A stretch of 5,974 nucleotides of DNA, taken from positions 1 through 5,974 of IMG/VR virus record IMGVR_UViG_2541047595_000008, one strand, 5' to 3'. The notes below the pieces were generated by a model that saw nothing but the letters and a program-made list of their open reading frames with translations, was not told the origin of the DNA and did not search any database. The position numbers and the translations under genes were made by a program. This document shows positions 1 through 5,974 of this stretch, piece by piece (the first letter of the stretch is position 1; each line of letters opens with the position of its first letter). Source of the stretch: a virus. Taxonomy: Duplodnaviria; Heunggongvirae; Uroviricota; Caudoviricetes.

Positions 1-411
1 GCAGCATTTTCTTCTGAAATGTATCCCAAACTGGCAAAGGTTTATCCAACGTTAAAATTACCTGATTTACGCGGTGAGTTTATCCGTGGTTGGGATGATG
101 GGCGAGGGATTGACTCTGGTCGCTCTATTTTAAGCGAGCAAGGATATGCAACGGAGGATCATGCTCACGGATTACCGTCAAAATCAACCGTAGCAACTGA
201 CCGCTCAATTAATTTCTACTTTGACGAGGCATGGGCTACTAGTGGTAATACGGGAGTTATCAGATGGGGGAACACAAGCGATGCAGGATTGCCAGCCCCT
301 AATTATGGAACTTTTAAAACATATAAACAGTCCGTAGCTAATTTAGGTACTGCTGGCTTAGAAACCCGCCCTCGTAATATTGCATTTAATTATATTGTGA
401 GGGCGGATTAA
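1..411 (+). CDS. Tail-fibre C-terminal variable domain Sv0 (5'-partial; gene continues upstream of window); probably the currently expressed variant
   Basis: Frame 1 is open from base 1 (AAFSSEMYPKLAKVYPTLKLPDLRGEFIRGWDDGRGIDSGR...) to TAA at 409..411. It carries the same conserved N-block and the same C-terminal tail (ETRPRNIAFNYIVRAD) as the minus-strand cassettes. The ORF-track start at 19 is an internal Met. Confidence 0.8.
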   Translation, partial: AAFSSEMYPKLAKVYPTLKLPDLRGEFIRGWDDGRGIDSGRSILSEQGYATEDHAHGLPSKSTVATDRSINFYFDEAWATSGNTGVIRWGNTSDAGLPAPNYGTFKTYKQSVANLGTAGLETRPRNIAFNYIVRAD

Positions 412-416
412 TTATA

Positions 417-1028
417 TCAACTGGCTGTAGAAAGTTGTTTTTCAGGCCAGTTGAGATCTGGTGCCGTGGTTAAATCCATCGCGTTCAGCTCGTCTATATA
501 ATCTAGCACGGAGTTAAGCTGCGTGGTTTCTGCCTGCGTCAACTTCCGTCCAGCCCGTAATTTCAACTGAATCAGACTAATGGAATCCATCGCAGTATCA
601 ATCAATGACTGACGTTTTGTTTCTGCTGCCTCTACAGCTGCACTATGTTGAGCCTCAGTATCAACCACCCATTTCTCTCCATCCCATTTGTCGTATGGTG
701 TTAGCGGGGCGATAGTGGTTGTATTTTCCGGATAGTCACCCAACACCGTGATTTCTTCGGGATTCCCAGTGTCAATGCTATAGACAGTTTCGCCACGATG
801 ATCTGGCACATACTCCCATGAACTTAAATCCTCTGAACGGAGAATCGCATAACCTGCTTTATGTGAGCCTGGAGCATCCAAACAAGAATTTGCCGGAATA
901 CCAACGCCAACAGCAAGATATTCAGTTGATGCAGAAATATATTCCCGATTACCACCATCATAGTTATAAACGATAATGTTTCCTGCCTGTATGGCTATAA
1001 GTTCGCTATTTAATATCGCATTATCCAT
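417..1028 (-). CDS. tfa: Tail-fibre assembly protein (Tfa / Mu-U-like chaperone), 203 aa
   Basis: The protein shows the Tfa pattern I recall from lambda Tfa and Mu/P1 U: GIPANS, DHRGETVY, PEN..T, KW.G..WV.DTEA and a C-terminal TAPDLNWP. Its ATG overlaps the stop of cassette A by 1 nt (TAATG on the minus strand). Confidence 0.85.
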   Translation of the reverse strand: MDNAILNSELIAIQAGNIIVYNYDGGNREYISASTEYLAVGVGIPANSCLDAPGSHKAGYAILRSEDLSSWEYVPDHRGETVYSIDTGNPEEITVLGDYPENTTTIAPLTPYDKWDGEKWVVDTEAQHSAAVEAAETKRQSLIDTAMDSISLIQLKLRAGRKLTQAETTQLNSVLDYIDELNAMDLTTAPDLNWPEKQLSTAS

Positions 1029-1486
1029 TATGCTGCTCTCACAATATAATTGAAGGCAATGTTACGTGGGCGGGTTTCATTCCCCCCAGATAACTCCGTT
1101 CTGTATTGACTGGTAAATTTACCATTAATCGCTCCTTCTTGGACGGCGTTATCTGTCGACAACAGACTATCCCCCCCTCTGTCATTTGGCACCAATACCG
1201 TGTTATCCCACGCGTCCCATGACCGAATATTATGATAATGACTTCCTGTTAACCACCCCTGTATGCTTAAGATGACCCTTCCCGCATCCACACCTCGCCC
1301 ATCATCCCAACCACGGATAAACTCACCGCGTAAATCCGGTAATTTATTGGTGGGATAAGCCTTTGCCAGATTTGGGTACTTTTCAGAAGAAAATGCTGCA
1401 CCATTGCATTTCAGCCACCCCGTTGGAGGTGTGGCTGAGGGCCACGGAACAGGTACACCAACGGGCAGCGCCGAGCCTTCTCCTAA
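1028..1486 (-). CDS. Silent tail-fibre C-terminal cassette A (no start codon; coupled to tfa)
   Basis: Manual translation shows the minus-strand frame open from site 1 down to TAA at 1028..1030: LGEGSALPVGVPVPWPSATPPTGWLKCNGAAFSSEKYPNLAKAYPTNKLPDLRGEFIRGWDDGRGVDAGRV...ETRPRNIAFNYIVRAA. The ORF track reports only 1028..1291 because the first usable start codon is an internal GTG. Confidence 0.75.
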   Translation of the reverse strand, partial: LGEGSALPVGVPVPWPSATPPTGWLKCNGAAFSSEKYPNLAKAYPTNKLPDLRGEFIRGWDDGRGVDAGRVILSIQGWLTGSHYHNIRSWDAWDNTVLVPNDRGGDSLLSTDNAVQEGAINGKFTSQYRTELSGGNETRPRNIAFNYIVRAA

Positions 1487-1503
1487 ACCAACGTTTCTAT
1501 GCC
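1478..1503 (-). repeat. Invertase crossover site 1 (hix/gix/cix-like, 26 bp)
   Basis: ttctcctaaacc-aa-cgtttctatgcc. Two imperfect inverted 12-bp half-sites flank a central AA dinucleotide. The aaacc-aa-cgttt core matches my recollection of hixL (AAACC-AA-GGTTT). It sits at the 5' boundary of cassette A. Confidence 0.7.
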
Positions 1504-1958
1504 GCTCTTACGATGTAATTAAATGCAATATTACGGGGGCGAGCTGATACATAAGCCCACCAGTCATATTTTTTGGCACCTTTACTGGATGCATCAAATA
1601 TCCACTTTTTGCCATTTATGGCCCCCCATTGATTAGAGGTTAAAGTGTCACCAAATCCGTATTGTGTTGAGCTGAGTGAACTGATATCCCCAGTATCATT
1701 ATCATCAAAACCGGAGACGATAGTGCCTTCCTGAAATGAAAGTATCTCTCGTCCTGCATCAATACCTCGTCCGTCATCCCAGCCACGGATAAATTCGCCC
1801 CGTAAATCCGGTAATTTATTGGTCGGATAAGCCTTTGCCAGCCTGGGGTACATTTCAGAAGAAAATGCTGCTCCGTTACATTTCAGCCAGCCCGTTGGTG
1901 GTGTGGCTGAGGGCCACGGAACGGGCACACCAACAGGCAGTGCAGAGCCTTCCCCCAA
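1497..1958 (-). CDS. Silent tail-fibre C-terminal cassette B
   Basis: 153-aa ORF. The apparent start is a TTG lying inside crossover site 2. It has the conserved N-block (GEGSALPVGVPVPWPSATPPTGWLKCNGAAFSSEMYP...KLPDLRGEFIRGWDDGRG), a unique middle and the invariant C-terminal RPRNIAFNYIVRAA. Confidence 0.75.
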   Translation of the reverse strand: MGEGSALPVGVPVPWPSATPPTGWLKCNGAAFSSEMYPRLAKAYPTNKLPDLRGEFIRGWDDGRGIDAGREILSFQEGTIVSGFDDNDTGDISSLSSTQYGFGDTLTSNQWGAINGKKWIFDASSKGAKKYDWWAYVSARPRNIAFNYIVRAA

Positions 1959-1975
1959 ACCAACGTTTTTATGTG
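1950..1975 (-). repeat. Invertase crossover site 2
   Basis: ttcccccaaacc-aa-cgtttttatgtg. The stop codon of cassette C (plus-strand tta at 1969..1971) is embedded in the outer half-site. Confidence 0.7.
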
Positions 1976-2472
1976 GCCCTTACAATGTAATTAAAAGCAA
2001 CGTTGCGGGGGCGCATTGATATCCATGCCCCGGTAAAATTATCCTCTGCCGTCCTTTGAGTGCCTGTTATGGAGTTATCTGATGATGCTGGAACATAATC
2101 GCTATTATCTCCTGCTTTAGGATTAGCAGGGTTTCCAACAGTTATAACAGAATCAGCAGTAGCATAAGCGATACCTACTTTGACATTAGTAGTCAGATCG
2201 ACACCGTAATAATCCTGCAAAGCTGTACGAATAAATGTTGCAGTCTGACCACTTAGCAATGAACGCCCTGTATCAATCCCTCTCGAATCATCCCAACCAC
2301 GGATAAACTCACCGCGTAAATCAGGTAATTTTAACGTTGGGTAAACCTTTGCCAGATTTGGGTACTTTTCAGAAGAAAATGCTGCTCCGTTACATTTCAG
2401 CCACCCCGTTGGTGGTGTGGCGGAGGGCCACGGAACAGGTACACCAACGGGCAGTGCCGAGCCTTCCCCTAA
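1969..2472 (-). CDS. Silent tail-fibre C-terminal cassette C
   Basis: Manual translation shows the frame open from site 3 to the stop at 1969: LGEGSALPVGVPVPWPSATPPTGWLKCNGAAFSSEKYPNLAKVYPTLKLPDLRGEFIRGWDDSRGIDTGRSLLSGQTATF...RPRNVAFNYIVRAT. The ORF track shows only 1969..2259 because no start codon lies upstream of the TTG at 2259. Confidence 0.75.
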   Translation of the reverse strand, partial: LGEGSALPVGVPVPWPSATPPTGWLKCNGAAFSSEKYPNLAKVYPTLKLPDLRGEFIRGWDDSRGIDTGRSLLSGQTATFIRTALQDYYGVDLTTNVKVGIAYATADSVITVGNPANPKAGDNSDYVPASSDNSITGTQRTAEDNFTGAWISMRPRNVAFNYIVRAT

Positions 2473-2489
2473 ACCAACGTTTTTATGCC
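2464..2489 (-). repeat. Invertase crossover site 3
   Basis: ttcccctaaacc-aa-cgtttttatgcc. Confidence 0.7.
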
Positions 2490-2986
2490 GCCCTTACGAT
2501 GTAATTAAATGCAACGTTGCGAGGGCGAGTTTCTGTACCTACATTTCCACTAATTTCACCATAACGTTTAACACTACGAGAGCTAATAGCTCGTAGTGAG
2601 GAAGGCACCTTATGACCGGGTTCGTCCGTTTTAACTATTCCCCCGTCACCGTATGTAGCTAGTATTCCTGGATTGACGCCTTCCCGTGCACTTCCTGCGG
2701 CGAGTCCGTCCCCTGTCCATAATTCCATATAGTGTGCATGGTCCAAAATTGTGTGTGGCTGCCAATTAAGCAAAGCGCGGCCAGCATCCACCCCGCGCCC
2801 ATCATCCCAACCGCGAATAAATTCTCCCCGTAAATCCGGTAATTTATTGGTGGGGTAGGCTTTTGCCAGTTTGGGATACATTTCAGAAGAAAATGCTGCA
2901 CCATTGCATTTCAGCCAGCCCGTTGGTGGTGTTTCTAAGGGCCACGGAACGGGCACGCCAACGGGCAGTGCAGAGCCTTCCCCCAA
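2483..2986 (-). CDS. Silent tail-fibre C-terminal cassette D
   Basis: 167-aa ORF with the conserved N-block (variant WPLETPP), a unique middle and the C-terminal ETRPRNVAFNYIVRAA. Its apparent TTG start lies in site 4. Confidence 0.75.
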   Translation of the reverse strand: MGEGSALPVGVPVPWPLETPPTGWLKCNGAAFSSEMYPKLAKAYPTNKLPDLRGEFIRGWDDGRGVDAGRALLNWQPHTILDHAHYMELWTGDGLAAGSAREGVNPGILATYGDGGIVKTDEPGHKVPSSLRAISSRSVKRYGEISGNVGTETRPRNVAFNYIVRAA

Positions 2987-3003
2987 ACCAACGTTTCTAT
3001 GCC
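2978..3003 (-). repeat. Invertase crossover site 4
   Basis: ttcccccaaacc-aa-cgtttctatgcc. Confidence 0.7.
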
Positions 3004-3428
3004 GCTCTTACGATGTAATTAAATGCAATATTACGAGGGCGAGATTCTCTCCCCCCCACCGAGTTAGTGCTATCCGATCTCTGTTGAATTACTGAGCCAG
3101 AAACATCAGCGGCTAAAAGATAATATCCACCTGTTGTATCAAATCCAGTTTGTGCCCATGTTCTTTCGAAATAATGACTATGTGATTTAAATTCATCTGT
3201 TTGAGTTGATAATAACGCGCGCCCACTATCCACTCCACGCCCATCATCCCAACCACGGATAAACTCACCGCGTAAATCCGGCAATTTATTGGTGGGGTAA
3301 GCCCTTGCCAGATTTGGGTACATTTCAGAAGAAAATGCTGCGCCGTTACATTTCAGCCACCCTGCTGGCGGTGTGGCTGAGGGCCACGGAACAGGCACAC
3401 CAACGGGCAGCGCAGAGCCTTCCCCCAA
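2997..3428 (-). CDS. Silent tail-fibre C-terminal cassette E
   Basis: 143-aa ORF with the conserved N-block (variant PPAGW), a unique middle and the C-terminal SRPRNIAFNYIVRAA. Confidence 0.75.
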   Translation of the reverse strand: MGEGSALPVGVPVPWPSATPPAGWLKCNGAAFSSEMYPNLARAYPTNKLPDLRGEFIRGWDDGRGVDSGRALLSTQTDEFKSHSHYFERTWAQTGFDTTGGYYLLAADVSGSVIQQRSDSTNSVGGRESRPRNIAFNYIVRAA

Positions 3429-3445
3429 ACCAACGTTTTTATGCC
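3420..3445 (-). repeat. Invertase crossover site 5
   Basis: ttcccccaaacc-aa-cgtttttatgcc. Confidence 0.7.
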
Positions 3446-3915
3446 GCCCTTACGATGTAATTAAATGCGATATTTCGTGGACGGGTTTCACTCCCGCCAG
3501 TATTACCAATACTCCCTCGAGAATGAAGTGTCGGTGATGGAATCAAATTCCCTCCTGTATTTGAGGCATCAAGCCCCCGTCCTTGTGTGTATGTTTTTTT
3601 GAAAATTGTCGCCAGCTCCCATTCATCTTTTGTGTCGTAACCATCATTGGCTACAACAATATGTCGGTGCTTTTCCAGCATTCCTGTCTGAATGCTCAAT
3701 AAAGCACGTCCCGCATCCACCCCGCGCCCATCATCCCAGCCGCGAATAAATTCTCCCCGTAAATCCGGTAATTTATTGGTGGGATAAGCCTTTGCCAGCC
3801 TGGGGTACATTTCAGAAGAAAATGCTGCTCCGTTGCATTTTAGCCAGCCTGTTGGCGGAGTGGCTGAGGGCCACGGAACAGGTACGCCAACAGGCAATGC
3901 AGAGCCTTCCCCCAA
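3439..3915 (-). CDS. Silent tail-fibre C-terminal cassette F
   Basis: 158-aa ORF with the conserved N-block, a unique middle and the C-terminal ETRPRNIAFNYIVRAA. Confidence 0.75.
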   Translation of the reverse strand: MGEGSALPVGVPVPWPSATPPTGWLKCNGAAFSSEMYPRLAKAYPTNKLPDLRGEFIRGWDDGRGVDAGRALLSIQTGMLEKHRHIVVANDGYDTKDEWELATIFKKTYTQGRGLDASNTGGNLIPSPTLHSRGSIGNTGGSETRPRNIAFNYIVRAA

Positions 3916-3932
3916 ACCAACGTTTTTATGCC
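3907..3932 (-). repeat. Invertase crossover site 6
   Basis: ttcccccaaacc-aa-cgtttttatgcc, identical to sites 5 and 7. Confidence 0.7.
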
Positions 3933-4393
3933 GCCCTTACGATATAATTAAACGCAATATTACGGGGGCGGGTTTCAGATGCTGTACGAACTGAGCGAGA
4001 GGCGTCGAATGTCCAGTTATAAGCGCCATAACCCTCAATAATTTCCGTTTCCTTTAGGCCTGTAGATAATACTTGACCATGTTGACTAAATGGCCCTGAA
4101 CTAAGTACATCTCTAAAAAGCTGAGTACGCCCGAAAGAACCAACAATATTCTGAATTGCATCATTCTGTGCAGATAATAAATTACGGCCAGAGTCAATCC
4201 CCCGCCCGTCATCCCAGCCGCGAATAAATTCGCCCCGTAGATCCGGCAATTTATTAGTGGGGTAAACCTTTGCCAGATTTGGGTACTTTTCAGAAGAAAA
4301 TGCTGCTCCGTTACATTTCAGCCACCCCGTTGGTGGTGTGGCGGAGGGCCATGGAACAGGTACACCAACGGGCAGTGCCGAGCCTTCCCCCAA
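3926..4393 (-). CDS. Silent tail-fibre C-terminal cassette G
   Basis: 155-aa ORF with the conserved N-block, a unique middle and the C-terminal ETRPRNIAFNYIVRAA. Confidence 0.75.
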   Translation of the reverse strand: MGEGSALPVGVPVPWPSATPPTGWLKCNGAAFSSEKYPNLAKVYPTNKLPDLRGEFIRGWDDGRGIDSGRNLLSAQNDAIQNIVGSFGRTQLFRDVLSSGPFSQHGQVLSTGLKETEIIEGYGAYNWTFDASRSVRTASETRPRNIAFNYIVRAA

Positions 4394-4410
4394 ACCAACG
4401 TTTTTATGCC
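4385..4410 (-). repeat. Invertase crossover site 7
   Basis: ttcccccaaacc-aa-cgtttttatgcc. Confidence 0.7.
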
Positions 4411-4832
4411 GCCCTTACGATGTAATTAAATGCGATATTTCGCGGCCTGACAGCAACAAAATTTATACCATCACCTACAGAGTTACTGGTGAAATTAAAT
4501 CGTGAAAATCCTGGCTGATTTCCGACGATGCCATCATGAAAATTAATTGCGTGCCCCGCACCATCGCCTATATTTCCGGCACGCTGAGAAAAGTTTGTAG
4601 CCTCTTGGCTGCTTAATAATGCTCGCCCATTGTCCACACCTCGTCCATCATCCCAACCTCGAATAAATTCGCCCCGTAGATCCGGCAATTTATTGGTGGG
4701 GTAAACCTTTGCCAGATTTGGGTACTTTTCAGAAGAAAATGCTGCTCCGTTACATTTCAGCCACCCCGTTGGTGGTGTGGCGGAGGGCCATGGAACAGGT
4801 ACACCAACGGGCAGCGCCGAGCCTTCCCCTAA
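4404..4832 (-). CDS. Silent tail-fibre C-terminal cassette H (outermost, next to the invertase)
   Basis: Manual translation from site 8 is open: LGEGSALPVGVPVPWPSATPPTGWLKCNGA... continuing in the same frame into ORF 4404..4688 (LPDLRGEFIRGWDDGRGVDNGR...VRPRNIAFNYIVRAA). The ORF track is shorter because the first start-capable codon is the TTG at 4686..4688. Confidence 0.7.
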   Translation of the reverse strand, partial: LGEGSALPVGVPVPWPSATPPTGWLKCNGAAFSSEKYPNLAKVYPTNKLPDLRGEFIRGWDDGRGVDNGRALLSSQEATNFSQRAGNIGDGAGHAINFHDGIVGNQPGFSRFNFTSNSVGDGINFVAVRPRNIAFNYIVRAA

Positions 4833-4849
4833 ACCAACGTTTTAGTCTT
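4824..4849 (-). repeat. Invertase crossover site 8 (array boundary site)
   Basis: ttcccctaaacc-aa-cgttttagtctt. The inner half-site and core match the other seven. The outer half-site diverges, with no preceding cassette and no embedded stop codon, as expected for the edge of the invertible region. Confidence 0.65.
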
Positions 4850-4903: not shown

Positions 4904-5476
4904 ATGCAAATTGGCTACATTCGTGTGTCAACAAATGACCAAAACACAGATTTACAAAGAAATGCACTGAACTGCGCAGGATGTGAACTGATTTTTGAAG
5001 ATAAAATAAGCGGAACAAAGTCAGCCAGACCAGGCTTGAAAAAGCTGCTCAGAACGTTATCAGAAGGAGATACGCTGGTTGTCTGGAAGCTGGATAGGCT
5101 TGGCAGAAGTATGAAACACCTTATCACGCTTATAGAGGAGTTGCGGGAAAAAGGTGTTAATTTCCGTAGTCTGACAGACAGTATTGACACATCAACACCC
5201 ATGGGGCGTTTCTTTTTTCATGTCATGGGTGCTTTAGCAGAAATGGAACGTGAATTAATTGTTGAGAGAACACTGGCCGGACTGGCAGCTGCACGCGAAC
5301 AGGGACGCATTGGCGGACGTCGCCCGAAGTTGACAAAAGAACAACATGAGCAAATAGCGAGGTTGATCGAAAATGGCTACAGCAGGAAACAGTTGGCAAT
5401 TATTTACGATATCGGTGTATCGACGATTTATCGTTATCATCCTGTAGAGAAGCGCCAAACTCAATCTGAGCTGTAA
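4904..5476 (+). CDS. Serine DNA invertase of the Gin/Cin/Hin/Pin/Min family (190 aa)
   Basis: MQIGYIRVSTNDQNTDLQRNAL...TLVVWKLDRLGRSMKHL...SLTDSIDTS.PMGRFFFHVMGALAEMERELI.ERT.AGLAAAR..GRIGGR is close to colinear with Gin and Cin as I recall them. The catalytic Ser is at position 9 and there is a C-terminal HTH (GVSTIYRY). The true start is the ATG at 4904; the ORF-track start is an upstream TTG at 4895. Stop is TAA at 5474..5476. Confidence 0.95.
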   Translation: MQIGYIRVSTNDQNTDLQRNALNCAGCELIFEDKISGTKSARPGLKKLLRTLSEGDTLVVWKLDRLGRSMKHLITLIEELREKGVNFRSLTDSIDTSTPMGRFFFHVMGALAEMERELIVERTLAGLAAAREQGRIGGRRPKLTKEQHEQIARLIENGYSRKQLAIIYDIGVSTIYRYHPVEKRQTQSEL

Positions 5477-5596: not shown

Positions 5597-5615
5597 CCCT
5601 AGTCCGAGACTAGGG
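5597..5615. other. Perfect 8-bp inverted repeat with a 3-nt loop (ccctagtc-cga-gactaggg)
   Basis: Seen directly in the sequence. No T-tract follows, so it is not a classical intrinsic terminator. It could be a protein-binding palindrome or an RNA hairpin. Confidence 0.25.
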
Positions 5616-5884
5616 TATCACCTCTGGAAAGCATACGCAGAACCTTTTTTAACCCAGGGTGCCCAGCCTTTTTGCTGCTCGCCTTATTCGCAAAAATTAG
5701 CTCACATCCTGCGCTTTCAAGTGCTTTTCACTGCATAGCTGTGTTTTGTTCATTTGTCTATATGCGTACATAGCCTATTAGCATATTTTTTGCCCACTAT
5801 CGTTATTTATTGCAAGCCACAGGTTTTAATTAACAAAACCAGTGTGTGTGGAAATCACAAAGTGCATACCGTTCTCAAATGTTG

Positions 5885-5974
5885 GGCTTTGTTGAATAAA
5901 TCGAACTTTTGCTGAGTTGAAGGATCAGATCACGCATCTTCCCGACAACGCAGACCGTTCCGTGGCAAAGCAAA
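5885..5974. mobile_element. Terminus of an IS903-group (IS5-family) insertion sequence; element continues beyond the window
   Basis: ggctttgttgaataaatc at 5885..5902 matches my recollection of the 18-bp IS903 terminal inverted repeat. The following ~70 bp (gaacttttgctgagttgaaggatcagatcacgcatcttcccgacaacgcagaccgttccgtggcaaagcaaa) matches the IS903 remnant I remember flanking the Tn903 kanamycin cassette in common vectors. This is from memory, not from a search. Confidence 0.6.

What the first reader, a model, noticed from the sequence alone, without database searches (positions are those of the whole stretch)
1028..4849. Long direct repeats make the array prone to deletion, expansion and mis-assembly
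The eight cassettes share about 230 bp of near-identical DNA (site plus N-block) plus a conserved 3' end of about 45 bp, in direct orientation at roughly 480-bp spacing. Homologous recombination or replication slippage between these repeats would delete or duplicate whole cassettes independently of the invertase. Cassette number is therefore likely to vary between related elements. Short-read assemblies of such loci can collapse or chimerise cassettes, and this window could in principle be one isomer or a consensus of several.
Basis: inference. Interest (0 to 1): 0.5.

Follow-up and report, generated by a model that had tools for sequence, protein, structure and literature searches.

The report
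Invertible phage tail-fibre cassette array

Summary
Eight intact cassettes (439-514 bp) lie head to tail on the minus strand at 1028-4849. Each has a 26-bp crossover site, a ~215-nt conserved N-block, a variable part and a conserved 3' end. "Near-identical" is overstated: N-blocks are 82-94% identical in DNA (mean 88%), and most differences are synonymous.

The locus is a Min/Cin-type multiple-inversion tail-fibre switch of a P1/p15B-like phage-plasmid, driven by a serine invertase at 4904-5476.

The predictions largely hold:
- Relatives carry 2, 3, 6, 7, 8 or 9 cassettes.
- Four other assemblies carry the same nine cassettes, each in a different order.
- Identical variable regions sit on different N-blocks, so N-blocks exchange by homologous recombination or gene conversion.
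- Two reduced arrays carry the hybrid N-block expected from a homologous deletion.
- Public assemblies show orphan 2.5-kb contigs, uncircularised ends, duplicated blocks and disagreement within lineages.

Most assembly damage traces to mixed inversion isomers rather than to the direct repeats. The window itself looks like one legitimate isomer, probably a whole short-read contig that ends in repeats on both sides. Both the system and its assembly problem are already described, so interest is low.

The parts
1..411 (+). Cassette C0: 3' part of the currently expressed tail-fibre gene. It covers N-block position 97 onward, the variable part, the conserved 3' end and a TAA stop at 409-411. Its crossover site and the constant gene part lie upstream of the window.
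   Evidence: ORF and translation. Inverted-repeat arms 1-142 pair with every cassette N-block. In relatives C0 is fused to the constant part through a TTACC|TT|GGTTT site.
417..1028 (-). The only tail-fibre assembly (chaperone) gene. Its ATG overlaps the stop codon of cassette C1 (TAATG).
   Evidence: Pfam Caudo_TAP, E = 3e-30. Sequence read directly. The C0> <TAP <C1 block is unchanged in all relatives.
1028..1496 (-). Silent cassette C1 (155 aa from the site)
1497..1968 (-). Silent cassette C2 (156 aa)
   Evidence: The exact protein occurs in about 171 blocks of the public collection, including P2-like prophages.
1969..2482 (-). Silent cassette C3 (170 aa)
2483..2996 (-). Silent cassette C4 (170 aa)
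2997..3438 (-). Silent cassette C5 (146 aa)
3439..3925 (-). Silent cassette C6 (161 aa)
3926..4403 (-). Silent cassette C7 (158 aa)
4404..4842 (-). Silent cassette C8 (145 aa), next to the invertase gene
1478..1503 (-). 26-bp crossover site of C1: GGCATAGAAACG TT GGTTTAGGAGAA
   Evidence: Same type as the Phi2 sites of E. coli EC958 (PMC4134206).
1950..1975 (-). 26-bp crossover site of C2
2464..2489 (-). 26-bp crossover site of C3
2978..3003 (-). 26-bp crossover site of C4
3420..3445 (-). 26-bp crossover site of C5
3907..3932 (-). 26-bp crossover site of C6
4385..4410 (-). 26-bp crossover site of C7
4824..4849 (-). 26-bp crossover site of C8. Its left half comes from the fixed flank next to the invertase gene.
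4904..5476 (+). Serine DNA invertase of the Hin/Gin/Cin/Pin/Min (Din) family
   Evidence: Pfam Resolvase plus HTH_7. 74% identical to P1 Cin. Best solved structures are Mu Gin, E = 4e-92. The exact sequence equals UniRef Q05517_ECOLX 'DNA-invertase' and was seen on at least 1000 contigs.
4922..4993 (+). Stretch that corresponds to the annotated recombinational enhancer inside P1 cin (cin nt 19-90)
   Evidence: 58 of 72 nt identical to the P1 enhancer span. Function here is inferred.

Best explanation
The region is the silent-cassette store of a Min/Cin-type multiple DNA-inversion switch in the tail-fibre gene of a P1/p15B-like phage-plasmid.

How the switch works. A serine invertase (4904-5476) recombines the single plus-oriented 26-bp site in the expressed gene, which lies just upstream of the window, with any minus-oriented site. 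Inversion fuses a different C-terminal receptor-binding tip to the constant part of the fibre. Nine sites allow 80,640 isomers, and the window is one of them, with all silent cassettes on one strand. Invertases of this family strongly prefer inverted sites, so the eight directly repeated sites are largely safe from the enzyme.

The second layer. The ~215-nt N-blocks encode a conserved collar domain and are homeologous repeats (82-94% identical). They occasionally undergo RecA-type exchange or gene conversion. Between inverted copies this only relinks N-block pieces. Between direct copies it can delete or duplicate whole cassettes.

Consequences. Cassette number and N-block make-up drift between closely related plasmids. 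Any sequenced culture is a mixture of isomers, which is the main reason assemblies of this locus break or become chimeric.

Shown versus inferred. Shown: the anatomy, the enzyme family, different isomers in one strain, variable cassette number, and mosaic N-blocks. Inferred: the recombination pathway, the rates, and the idea that homologous deletions rather than other routes produced the smaller arrays.
For: Anatomy and enzyme.

Inversion is active:
- Strain 405 has the same 96,237-bp plasmid with the same six cassettes in two arrangements several inversions apart.
- The window's exact nine-cassette set occurs in L028, L030, L031 and L039, each in a different order, with 0 differences in nearly all variable parts.
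- All sound assemblies obey the rule predicted by a pure-inversion model. That model also gives 240 isomers for six sites, the number I recall for p15B.

Cassette number varies:
- 2 in pGD27-62, 3 in pGA_Eco1, 6 in strain 405, 9 in pMCR_SCKP-LL83, p64EVA-6 and pA338_p0.
- 6, 7, 7 and 8 in L025, L026, L027 and L038, whose cassettes are otherwise identical to the window's.

Homologous exchange in N-blocks:
- PHI-type test p < 0.001, and 393 of 741 informative site pairs are incompatible.
- For the same cassette type in different elements, divergence is 4.9% in the N-block against 0.7% in the variable part. One example is C4: 29 of 212 against 1 of 297 differences.
- The 5' 95 nt of the N-block are shared identically by different cassette types.
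- Breakpoints are scattered. That excludes exchange at the invertase core.

Deletion signature:
- L026 lacks C4 and C7. Its C1 N-block is C4(6-79) plus C1(80-217) with 0 mismatches, and the switch falls in the 37-nt exact run shared by C1 and C4.
- L027 lacks C6 and C7, and the 5' part of its C4 N-block is C6-like.

Assembly trouble:
- Orphan cassette contigs of 2,526, 2,595 and 2,415 bp.
- NZ_CP122504.1 is linear, with the invertase gene at both ends and two different isomers.
- CP088508.1 has a duplicated C0-TAP block and breaks the structural rule.
- In the 2020N21-110 lineage the parent and one derivative have C3 twice and no C8, while another derivative has C8.
- Many ~95-kb plasmid contigs end within 160-370 nt of the active site.
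- The same problem was published for E. coli EC958 prophages (PMC4134206).
Against: - No reads are available, so neither heterogeneity nor instability of this particular element is shown.
- The hybrid N-blocks of L026 and L027 are unique to single draft assemblies. They are absent at 100% identity from 5,426 complete E. coli genomes (best 97.7% and 94.0%). They could be assembler path switches.
- L038 lacks C4 without any hybrid N-block. That fits excision at the sites, or a gain of C4, as well as homologous deletion.
- Duplicated cassettes in 'complete' records cannot be told apart from artefacts.
- With 12% divergence and mismatch repair, homologous exchange should be rare. All nine cassettes in the window are intact and unique.
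Confidence: 0.8

Rival explanations
1. Differences in cassette number and the hybrid N-blocks are mostly assembly artefacts (collapse, path switching at shared k-mers, consensus of mixed isomers). Biologically the array keeps a constant cassette number and only inverts.
For: - Many demonstrably faulty public assemblies.
- Hybrid junctions are singletons.
- The reduced arrays L025-L027 and L038 are draft contigs.
- The problem is published.
Against: - Independent complete plasmids agree on their sets. Three records carry the same 9-set. Two assemblies of strain 405 carry the same 6-set at the same length. pGD27-62 has 2.
- N-block haplotypes are shared by independent records.
- Exact shared runs are mostly under 60 nt, below the k-mers of common assemblers.
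Confidence: 0.3
2. Whole-cassette losses come from rare invertase-catalysed deletion between directly oriented sites, with excision of a circle, rather than from homologous recombination.
For: - L038 lacks C4 and all remaining N-blocks are unchanged.
- Losses are always whole cassettes.
- In the window isomer eight sites are direct repeats.
Against: - Inversion systems of this family prefer inverted sites over same-oriented sites (stated in PMC11850598; topological filter of Hin/Gin, own knowledge).
- Hybrid N-blocks in L026 and L027 place the breakpoints 80-140 nt inside the N-block, not at the core.
Confidence: 0.15
3. Arrays differ mainly because cassettes are gained or replaced by horizontal exchange with other phages, using the conserved N-block and 3' end as homology arms. 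Internal deletion or duplication plays little part.
For: - Two different nine-cassette repertoires differ by replacement: C2 and C5 against N1 and N2.
- At least 13 cassette types were seen.
- C2 and N1 also sit in 4-cassette arrays of chromosomal P2-like prophages.
- Some variable parts match lambdoid side tail-fibre genes.
Against: This does not explain subsets of the same repertoire with otherwise identical sequences (6, 7 or 8 of the window's nine). It also does not explain hybrid N-blocks built from a missing cassette. It complements the main explanation rather than excluding it.
Confidence: 0.35

Closest known systems
Min multiple DNA-inversion system of plasmid p15B (E. coli 15T-). Sandmeier, Iida, Arber and co-workers 1990-1992, cited. 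Details are from my own knowledge because the papers are not held.
   Same: - P1-related plasmid prophage.
- Din-family serine invertase placed beside the array.
- Several 26-bp crossover sites inside the 3' part of a tail-fibre gene.
- Overlapping invertible segments that assemble a variable gene.
- The same flanking genes, including the decayed cin fragment that the P1 record says p15B also carries.
- My inversion model gives 240 isomers for six sites, the number I recall for p15B.
   Different: - Nine sites and nine cassettes here against six sites in p15B, so 80,640 possible isomers.
- Identity with the p15B sequence itself could not be tested, because X62121 is not in the collections.
Cin/C-segment of phage P1 and Gin/G-segment of phage Mu
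   Same: - Invertase 74% identical to Cin, with Gin as the best solved structure.
- The crossover site lies inside the tail-fibre gene.
- Enhancer-like stretch in the 5' part of the invertase gene.
- Same neighbourhood of lysis and dar genes in relatives.
   Different: - P1 and Mu have two sites, one invertible segment, two alternative tips and one chaperone gene for each tip.
- Here there are nine tips and one chaperone gene.
- The invertase gene points away from the array, whereas P1 cin ends at cixL.
R64/IncI shufflon (Rci, pilV)
   Same: Multiple-inversion cassette store that swaps C-terminal tips of an adhesin-like protein. Inversion is preferred over deletion. It is known to confuse assemblies.
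   Different: Tyrosine recombinase Rci and sfx sites there. Here the enzyme is a serine invertase with cix/mix-type sites. This locus is not a member of that family.
Invertible prophage tail-fibre segments of E. coli EC958 that gave spurious PacBio contigs (Forde et al. 2014, PMC4134206)
   Same: - Same site type: Phi2 TTACCTT GGTTTAGGAGAA and AAACGTT GGTTTGGGGGAA.
- About 200 bp of imperfect repeat behind the site.
- Collar-domain tips.
- Alternative-isomer contigs and a warning about artefactual duplications.
   Different: Those are single invertible segments in chromosomal prophages. This is a nine-cassette array on a plasmid prophage.

Membership tests
Din-family (Hin/Gin/Cin/Pin/Min) DNA-inversion system | Small serine recombinase with an N-terminal resolvase catalytic domain and a C-terminal HTH, closely related to known invertases | tested here: met
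   PF00239 at 2e-51 and PF02796 at 3e-15. 74% identity to P1 Cin over 186 aa. Mu Gin structures at E = 4e-92.
Din-family (Hin/Gin/Cin/Pin/Min) DNA-inversion system | 26-bp crossover sites made of two imperfect 12-bp half-sites around a 2-bp core | tested here: met
   Eight sites of the form xxxxxxAAAACG TT GGTTTRGGRGAA. They match the published Phi2 sites and consensus table.
Din-family (Hin/Gin/Cin/Pin/Min) DNA-inversion system | At least one pair of sites in inverted orientation flanking the invertible DNA | tested here: inconclusive
   All eight sites in the window share one orientation. The opposing site lies off the window. It is present in every relative as TTACC TT GGTTT inside the constant gene part.
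Din-family (Hin/Gin/Cin/Pin/Min) DNA-inversion system | Fis-dependent recombinational enhancer in the 5' part of the invertase gene | tested here: inconclusive
   58 of 72 nt identical to the span annotated as enhancer in P1 cin. Fis binding and function were not tested.
Din-family (Hin/Gin/Cin/Pin/Min) DNA-inversion system | Inversion actually occurs | tested here: met
   For relatives: two isomers of one plasmid in strain 405, and five arrangements of the same nine cassettes. Not testable for this isolate without reads.
p15B Min-type multiple-inversion region | More than two crossover sites giving overlapping invertible segments within one tail-fibre gene on a P1-related plasmid | tested here: met
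   Eight sites in the window plus one implied. Relatives are 90-100-kb P1-like plasmids with darA, lydAB and baseplate genes.
p15B Min-type multiple-inversion region | Sequence identity to the p15B min gene and region (X62121) | not testable with these tools
   The p15B sequence is not in the collections and the papers are not held. Indirect evidence only: the exact invertase is UniRef Q05517_ECOLX, and the P1 record notes p15B homology for the stretch matching window 5608-5873.
R64-type shufflon | Tyrosine recombinase Rci acting on sfx sites | tested here: not met
   The only recombinase is a serine invertase, and the sites are of the cix/mix type.

The most novel reading that the evidence does not exclude
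The conserved N-block may be more than a structural collar domain. It could act as a second, invertase-independent shuffling handle. Homeologous recombination and short gene-conversion tracts between N-blocks relink cassette heads, resize the array and import cassettes from unrelated prophages. The high synonymous divergence (pS 0.375 against pN 0.041) would then be maintained because it keeps deletion between direct copies rare enough for a nine-cassette store to survive.
Probability: 0.25. Interest if true: 0.4.

Novelty: already known. Interest (0 to 1): 0.2.

Why it matters
The practical value is the main one. This locus sits on widespread P1-like phage-plasmids, some of which carry mcr-1 or ESBL genes. 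Its arrangement, cassette count and even its N-block sequences in public records should not be read as phylogenetic signal without long-read support.

A simple rule flags faulty assemblies: all plus-strand cassettes lie left of the C0/TAP/C1 segment, all minus-strand cassettes lie right of it, and no cassette appears twice.

Biologically, the data add a modest point to an old model. Homologous exchange in the conserved block acts alongside site-specific inversion in the evolution of tail-fibre repertoires.

Tried and rejected
- Tandem Repeats Finder sees no array. The units are too diverged for it, so it is not informative.
- I looked for the window's exact arrangement in complete plasmids, phages and E. 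coli genomes. No record covers 80% or more in one place. Draft contigs do hold the same nine cassettes in other orders.
- I tried to read the original p15B Min papers. They are not held.
- I tried to corroborate the L026 and L027 hybrid N-blocks in complete genomes. They were not found at 100% identity, so their reality stays open.
- I first took the records with 11-14 N-block copies as evidence of expansion. I rejected this because they are uncircularised or duplicated assemblies full of frameshifts.
- I considered a secondary invertase site inside the N-block as the cause of relinkage. I rejected it because the breakpoints are scattered.
- I considered an R64-type shufflon. I rejected it because the recombinase is a serine invertase.


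Full report
OBSERVATION

The window holds eight head-to-tail units on the minus strand between 1028 and 4849.
- The repeat finder returns one family of eight 294-nt copies, 76-85% identical to the reference copy, spaced 439-514 nt apart with a mean of 478.
- A 21-nt site motif occurs eight times on one strand. None is expected by chance.
- Read on the minus strand, each unit starts with a 26-bp site of the form xxxxxxAAAACG TT GGTTTRGGRGAA.
[quoted passage not shown] A variable stretch of 180-250 nt follows, then a conserved end (…RPRNIAFNYIVRAA*).
- All eight units are open from site to stop, at 145-170 aa.

"Near-identical" is not.
- N-blocks are 82-94% identical pairwise, mean 87.6%.
- The encoded peptides are 87.5-100% identical, with pS 0.375 and pN 0.041.
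- Exact runs shared by cassette pairs are 19-119 nt. Nineteen of 28 pairs share at least 30 nt.
- The 3' 48 nt are 69-96% identical.
- Tandem Repeats Finder finds nothing.

SURROUNDINGS

- Positions 1-411 (plus strand) are a ninth cassette, C0. It begins at N-block position 97 and is the tip currently joined to the expressed gene.
- Positions 417-1028 (minus strand) are the only tail-fibre assembly gene (Caudo_TAP). Its ATG overlaps the C1 stop codon.
- Positions 4904-5476 (plus strand) encode a serine invertase with Resolvase and HTH_7 domains. It is 74% identical to P1 Cin. Its best solved relatives are Mu Gin structures. The sequence is identical to UniRef Q05517_ECOLX and was seen on at least 1000 contigs.
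- The first 90 nt of the invertase gene are 81% identical to the enhancer annotated inside P1 cin.
- Positions 5608-5784 (minus strand) are a decayed 59-codon fragment of a second, Cin-like gene.
- Positions 5885-5974 are the end of an IS903B copy.

WHAT IT IS

Related DNA lies in 90-100-kb, non-mobilizable E. coli and Klebsiella plasmids. These carry P1-type baseplate, tail-fibre, lysis and dar genes. In those relatives the constant part of the tail-fibre gene ends in a site with the left half TTACC, followed by whichever cassette is active. Silent sites have the left half AAACG.

This is the architecture of the Min multiple-inversion region of p15B, a relative of the P1 C-segment and the Mu G-segment (own knowledge; cited). 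The site type was also published for the Phi2 prophage of E. coli EC958.

I modelled the locus as one two-headed segment (C0> <TAP <C1) plus single-headed cassettes. A breadth-first search over inversions between inverted sites gives 240 isomers for six sites, the number I recall for p15B. It gives 80,640 isomers for the nine sites here. The model also predicts a rule: plus-strand cassettes lie left of the two-headed segment and minus-strand cassettes lie right of it. The window and all sound assemblies obey this rule.

(a) Arrangement
- Two assemblies of strain 405 hold the same 96,237-bp plasmid with the same six cassettes, in arrangements about four inversions apart.
- The window's exact nine-cassette set is present in L028, L030, L031 and L039, each in a different order. 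Nearly all variable parts show zero differences from the window.
- So the window is one isomer of a switching population.

(b) Number and content
- Complete plasmids carry 2 cassettes (pGD27-62), 3 (pGA_Eco1), 6 (strain 405) or 9 (pMCR_SCKP-LL83, p64EVA-6, pA338_p0).
- Drafts whose cassettes are otherwise identical to the window's carry 6, 7, 7 and 8 (L025, L026, L027, L038).
- Two nine-cassette repertoires differ by replacement: C2 and C5 against N1 and N2. At least 13 cassette types were seen.
- C2 and N1 also occur in four-cassette arrays of chromosomal P2-like prophages.
- A megablast survey with one N-block finds 167 PLSDB plasmids and 710 copies, with 1-14 copies per record.

(c) Homologous exchange independent of the invertase

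A serine invertase exchanges DNA only at the 2-bp core. The N-block should therefore stay with its variable part. It does not.
- For the same cassette type in different elements, the N-block differs by 4.9% and the variable part by 0.7%.
- Extremes include C4 with 29 of 212 against 1 of 297 differences, and N1 with 25 of 212 against 0 of 222.
- The first 95 nt of the N-block are shared identically by different cassette types.
- Within the window, 393 of 741 informative site pairs are incompatible. A PHI-type permutation test gives p < 0.001.
- Among near-identical elements the changes are short patches or 5' swaps that match other cassettes exactly. The breakpoints are scattered along the block.

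(d) Deletion signature
- L026 lacks C4 and C7. Its C1 N-block is C4(6-79) joined to C1(80-217) with no mismatch. The switch lies in the longest exact run shared by C1 and C4, which is 37 nt.
- L027 lacks C6 and C7, and the 5' part of its C4 N-block is C6-like.
- These are the products expected from unequal exchange between direct N-blocks.
- They are singletons, absent from 5,426 complete genomes at full identity. An assembler artefact is therefore not excluded.
- L038 lacks C4 without any hybrid N-block.

(e) Assembly
- Orphan 'plasmid' contigs of 2,526, 2,595 and 2,415 bp consist only of cassettes and the TAP gene.
- NZ_CP122504.1 is deposited as linear, with the invertase and holin genes at both ends and two different isomers.
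- CP088508.1 has the C0-TAP block twice, an active-type site in mid-array and many frameshifted cassettes.
- In the 2020N21-110 lineage the parent and one derivative show C3 twice and no C8, while another derivative has C8. At least one of these is chimeric.
- Many ~95-kb draft contigs end within 160-370 nt of the active site.
- Forde et al. described the same effect in 2014 and warned of artefactual duplications.
- Most of these faults trace to mixed inversion isomers, not to collapse at direct repeats.

THE WINDOW ITSELF

The window starts at N-block position 97, the first base of the only 19-mer shared by all cassettes. It ends 90 nt into IS903B. It is therefore probably a complete short-read contig bounded by repeats; this is an inference. 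Inside it, all cassettes are unique, intact and identical to those of independent assemblies. Nothing suggests a chimera, but without reads this cannot be proven.

HOW UNSTABLE IS IT?

The bacterial MEPS is at most about 30 bp, and mismatch repair aborts exchange between diverged partners (review PMC8918686). Most N-block pairs offer a MEPS-length run but are 6-18% diverged around it. Exchange is therefore possible but damped. The isomer in the window has all eight silent N-blocks in direct orientation. It is the state in which any such exchange deletes rather than inverts; this is also an inference.

VERDICT

The system (p15B Min type) and the assembly problem are both already described, so interest is low.

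Noticed in passing
window 5608-5784 (-): Decayed 5' fragment of a second invertase gene. It spans 59 codons with two in-frame stops and is 83% identical in protein to the N-terminus of P1 Cin, including the stretch that is the enhancer in P1. The P1 record says p15B carries the same stretch.
   Followed up: partly
window 5885-5974: End of an IS903B (IS5-family) copy, 100% identical to many E. coli copies. It is inserted about 408 nt after the invertase stop codon, where relatives have a holin gene. With the left end lying inside the N-block, both window ends fall in repeats, as expected for a whole short-read contig.
   Followed up: partly
window 417-1030: One tail-fibre assembly gene serves nine cassettes. 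Its ATG overlaps the C1 stop codon (TAATG), and it converges on the expressed C0 tip with a 5-nt gap. The C0> <TAP <C1 block is unchanged in every relative. How tips other than C1 obtain a chaperone is unclear.
   Followed up: no
L034-L037 (chromosomal contigs), around 9500-12700: Cassettes identical to C2 and N1 sit in four-cassette invertible arrays of P2-like chromosomal prophages with a 190-aa invertase. Different genomes show different isomers. The cassette pool is therefore shared between unrelated phage types.
   Followed up: partly
window sites at 1484, 2470 and 4830 (position 13 of the cassette): An A/G polymorphism in the right half-site decides whether the cassette begins with a TTG start codon. 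This explains why ORF finders and annotators call C1, C3 and C8 as short or 'partial' proteins.
   Followed up: yes
L001-L015, tail-fibre CDS upstream of the array: The constant part of the tail-fibre gene varies widely in length between relatives (CDS 1,551 to 2,925 nt). P1 has annotated tandem repeats there, so this is a second repeat-driven length polymorphism. It may also explain contig breaks near the active site.
   Followed up: no
L015 4556 and 6904: Two silent sites in pNT1F10-94k have a hybrid left half, AAACC, which is intermediate between the silent AAACG and the active TTACC. Exchange at the TT core does not explain this.
   Followed up: no
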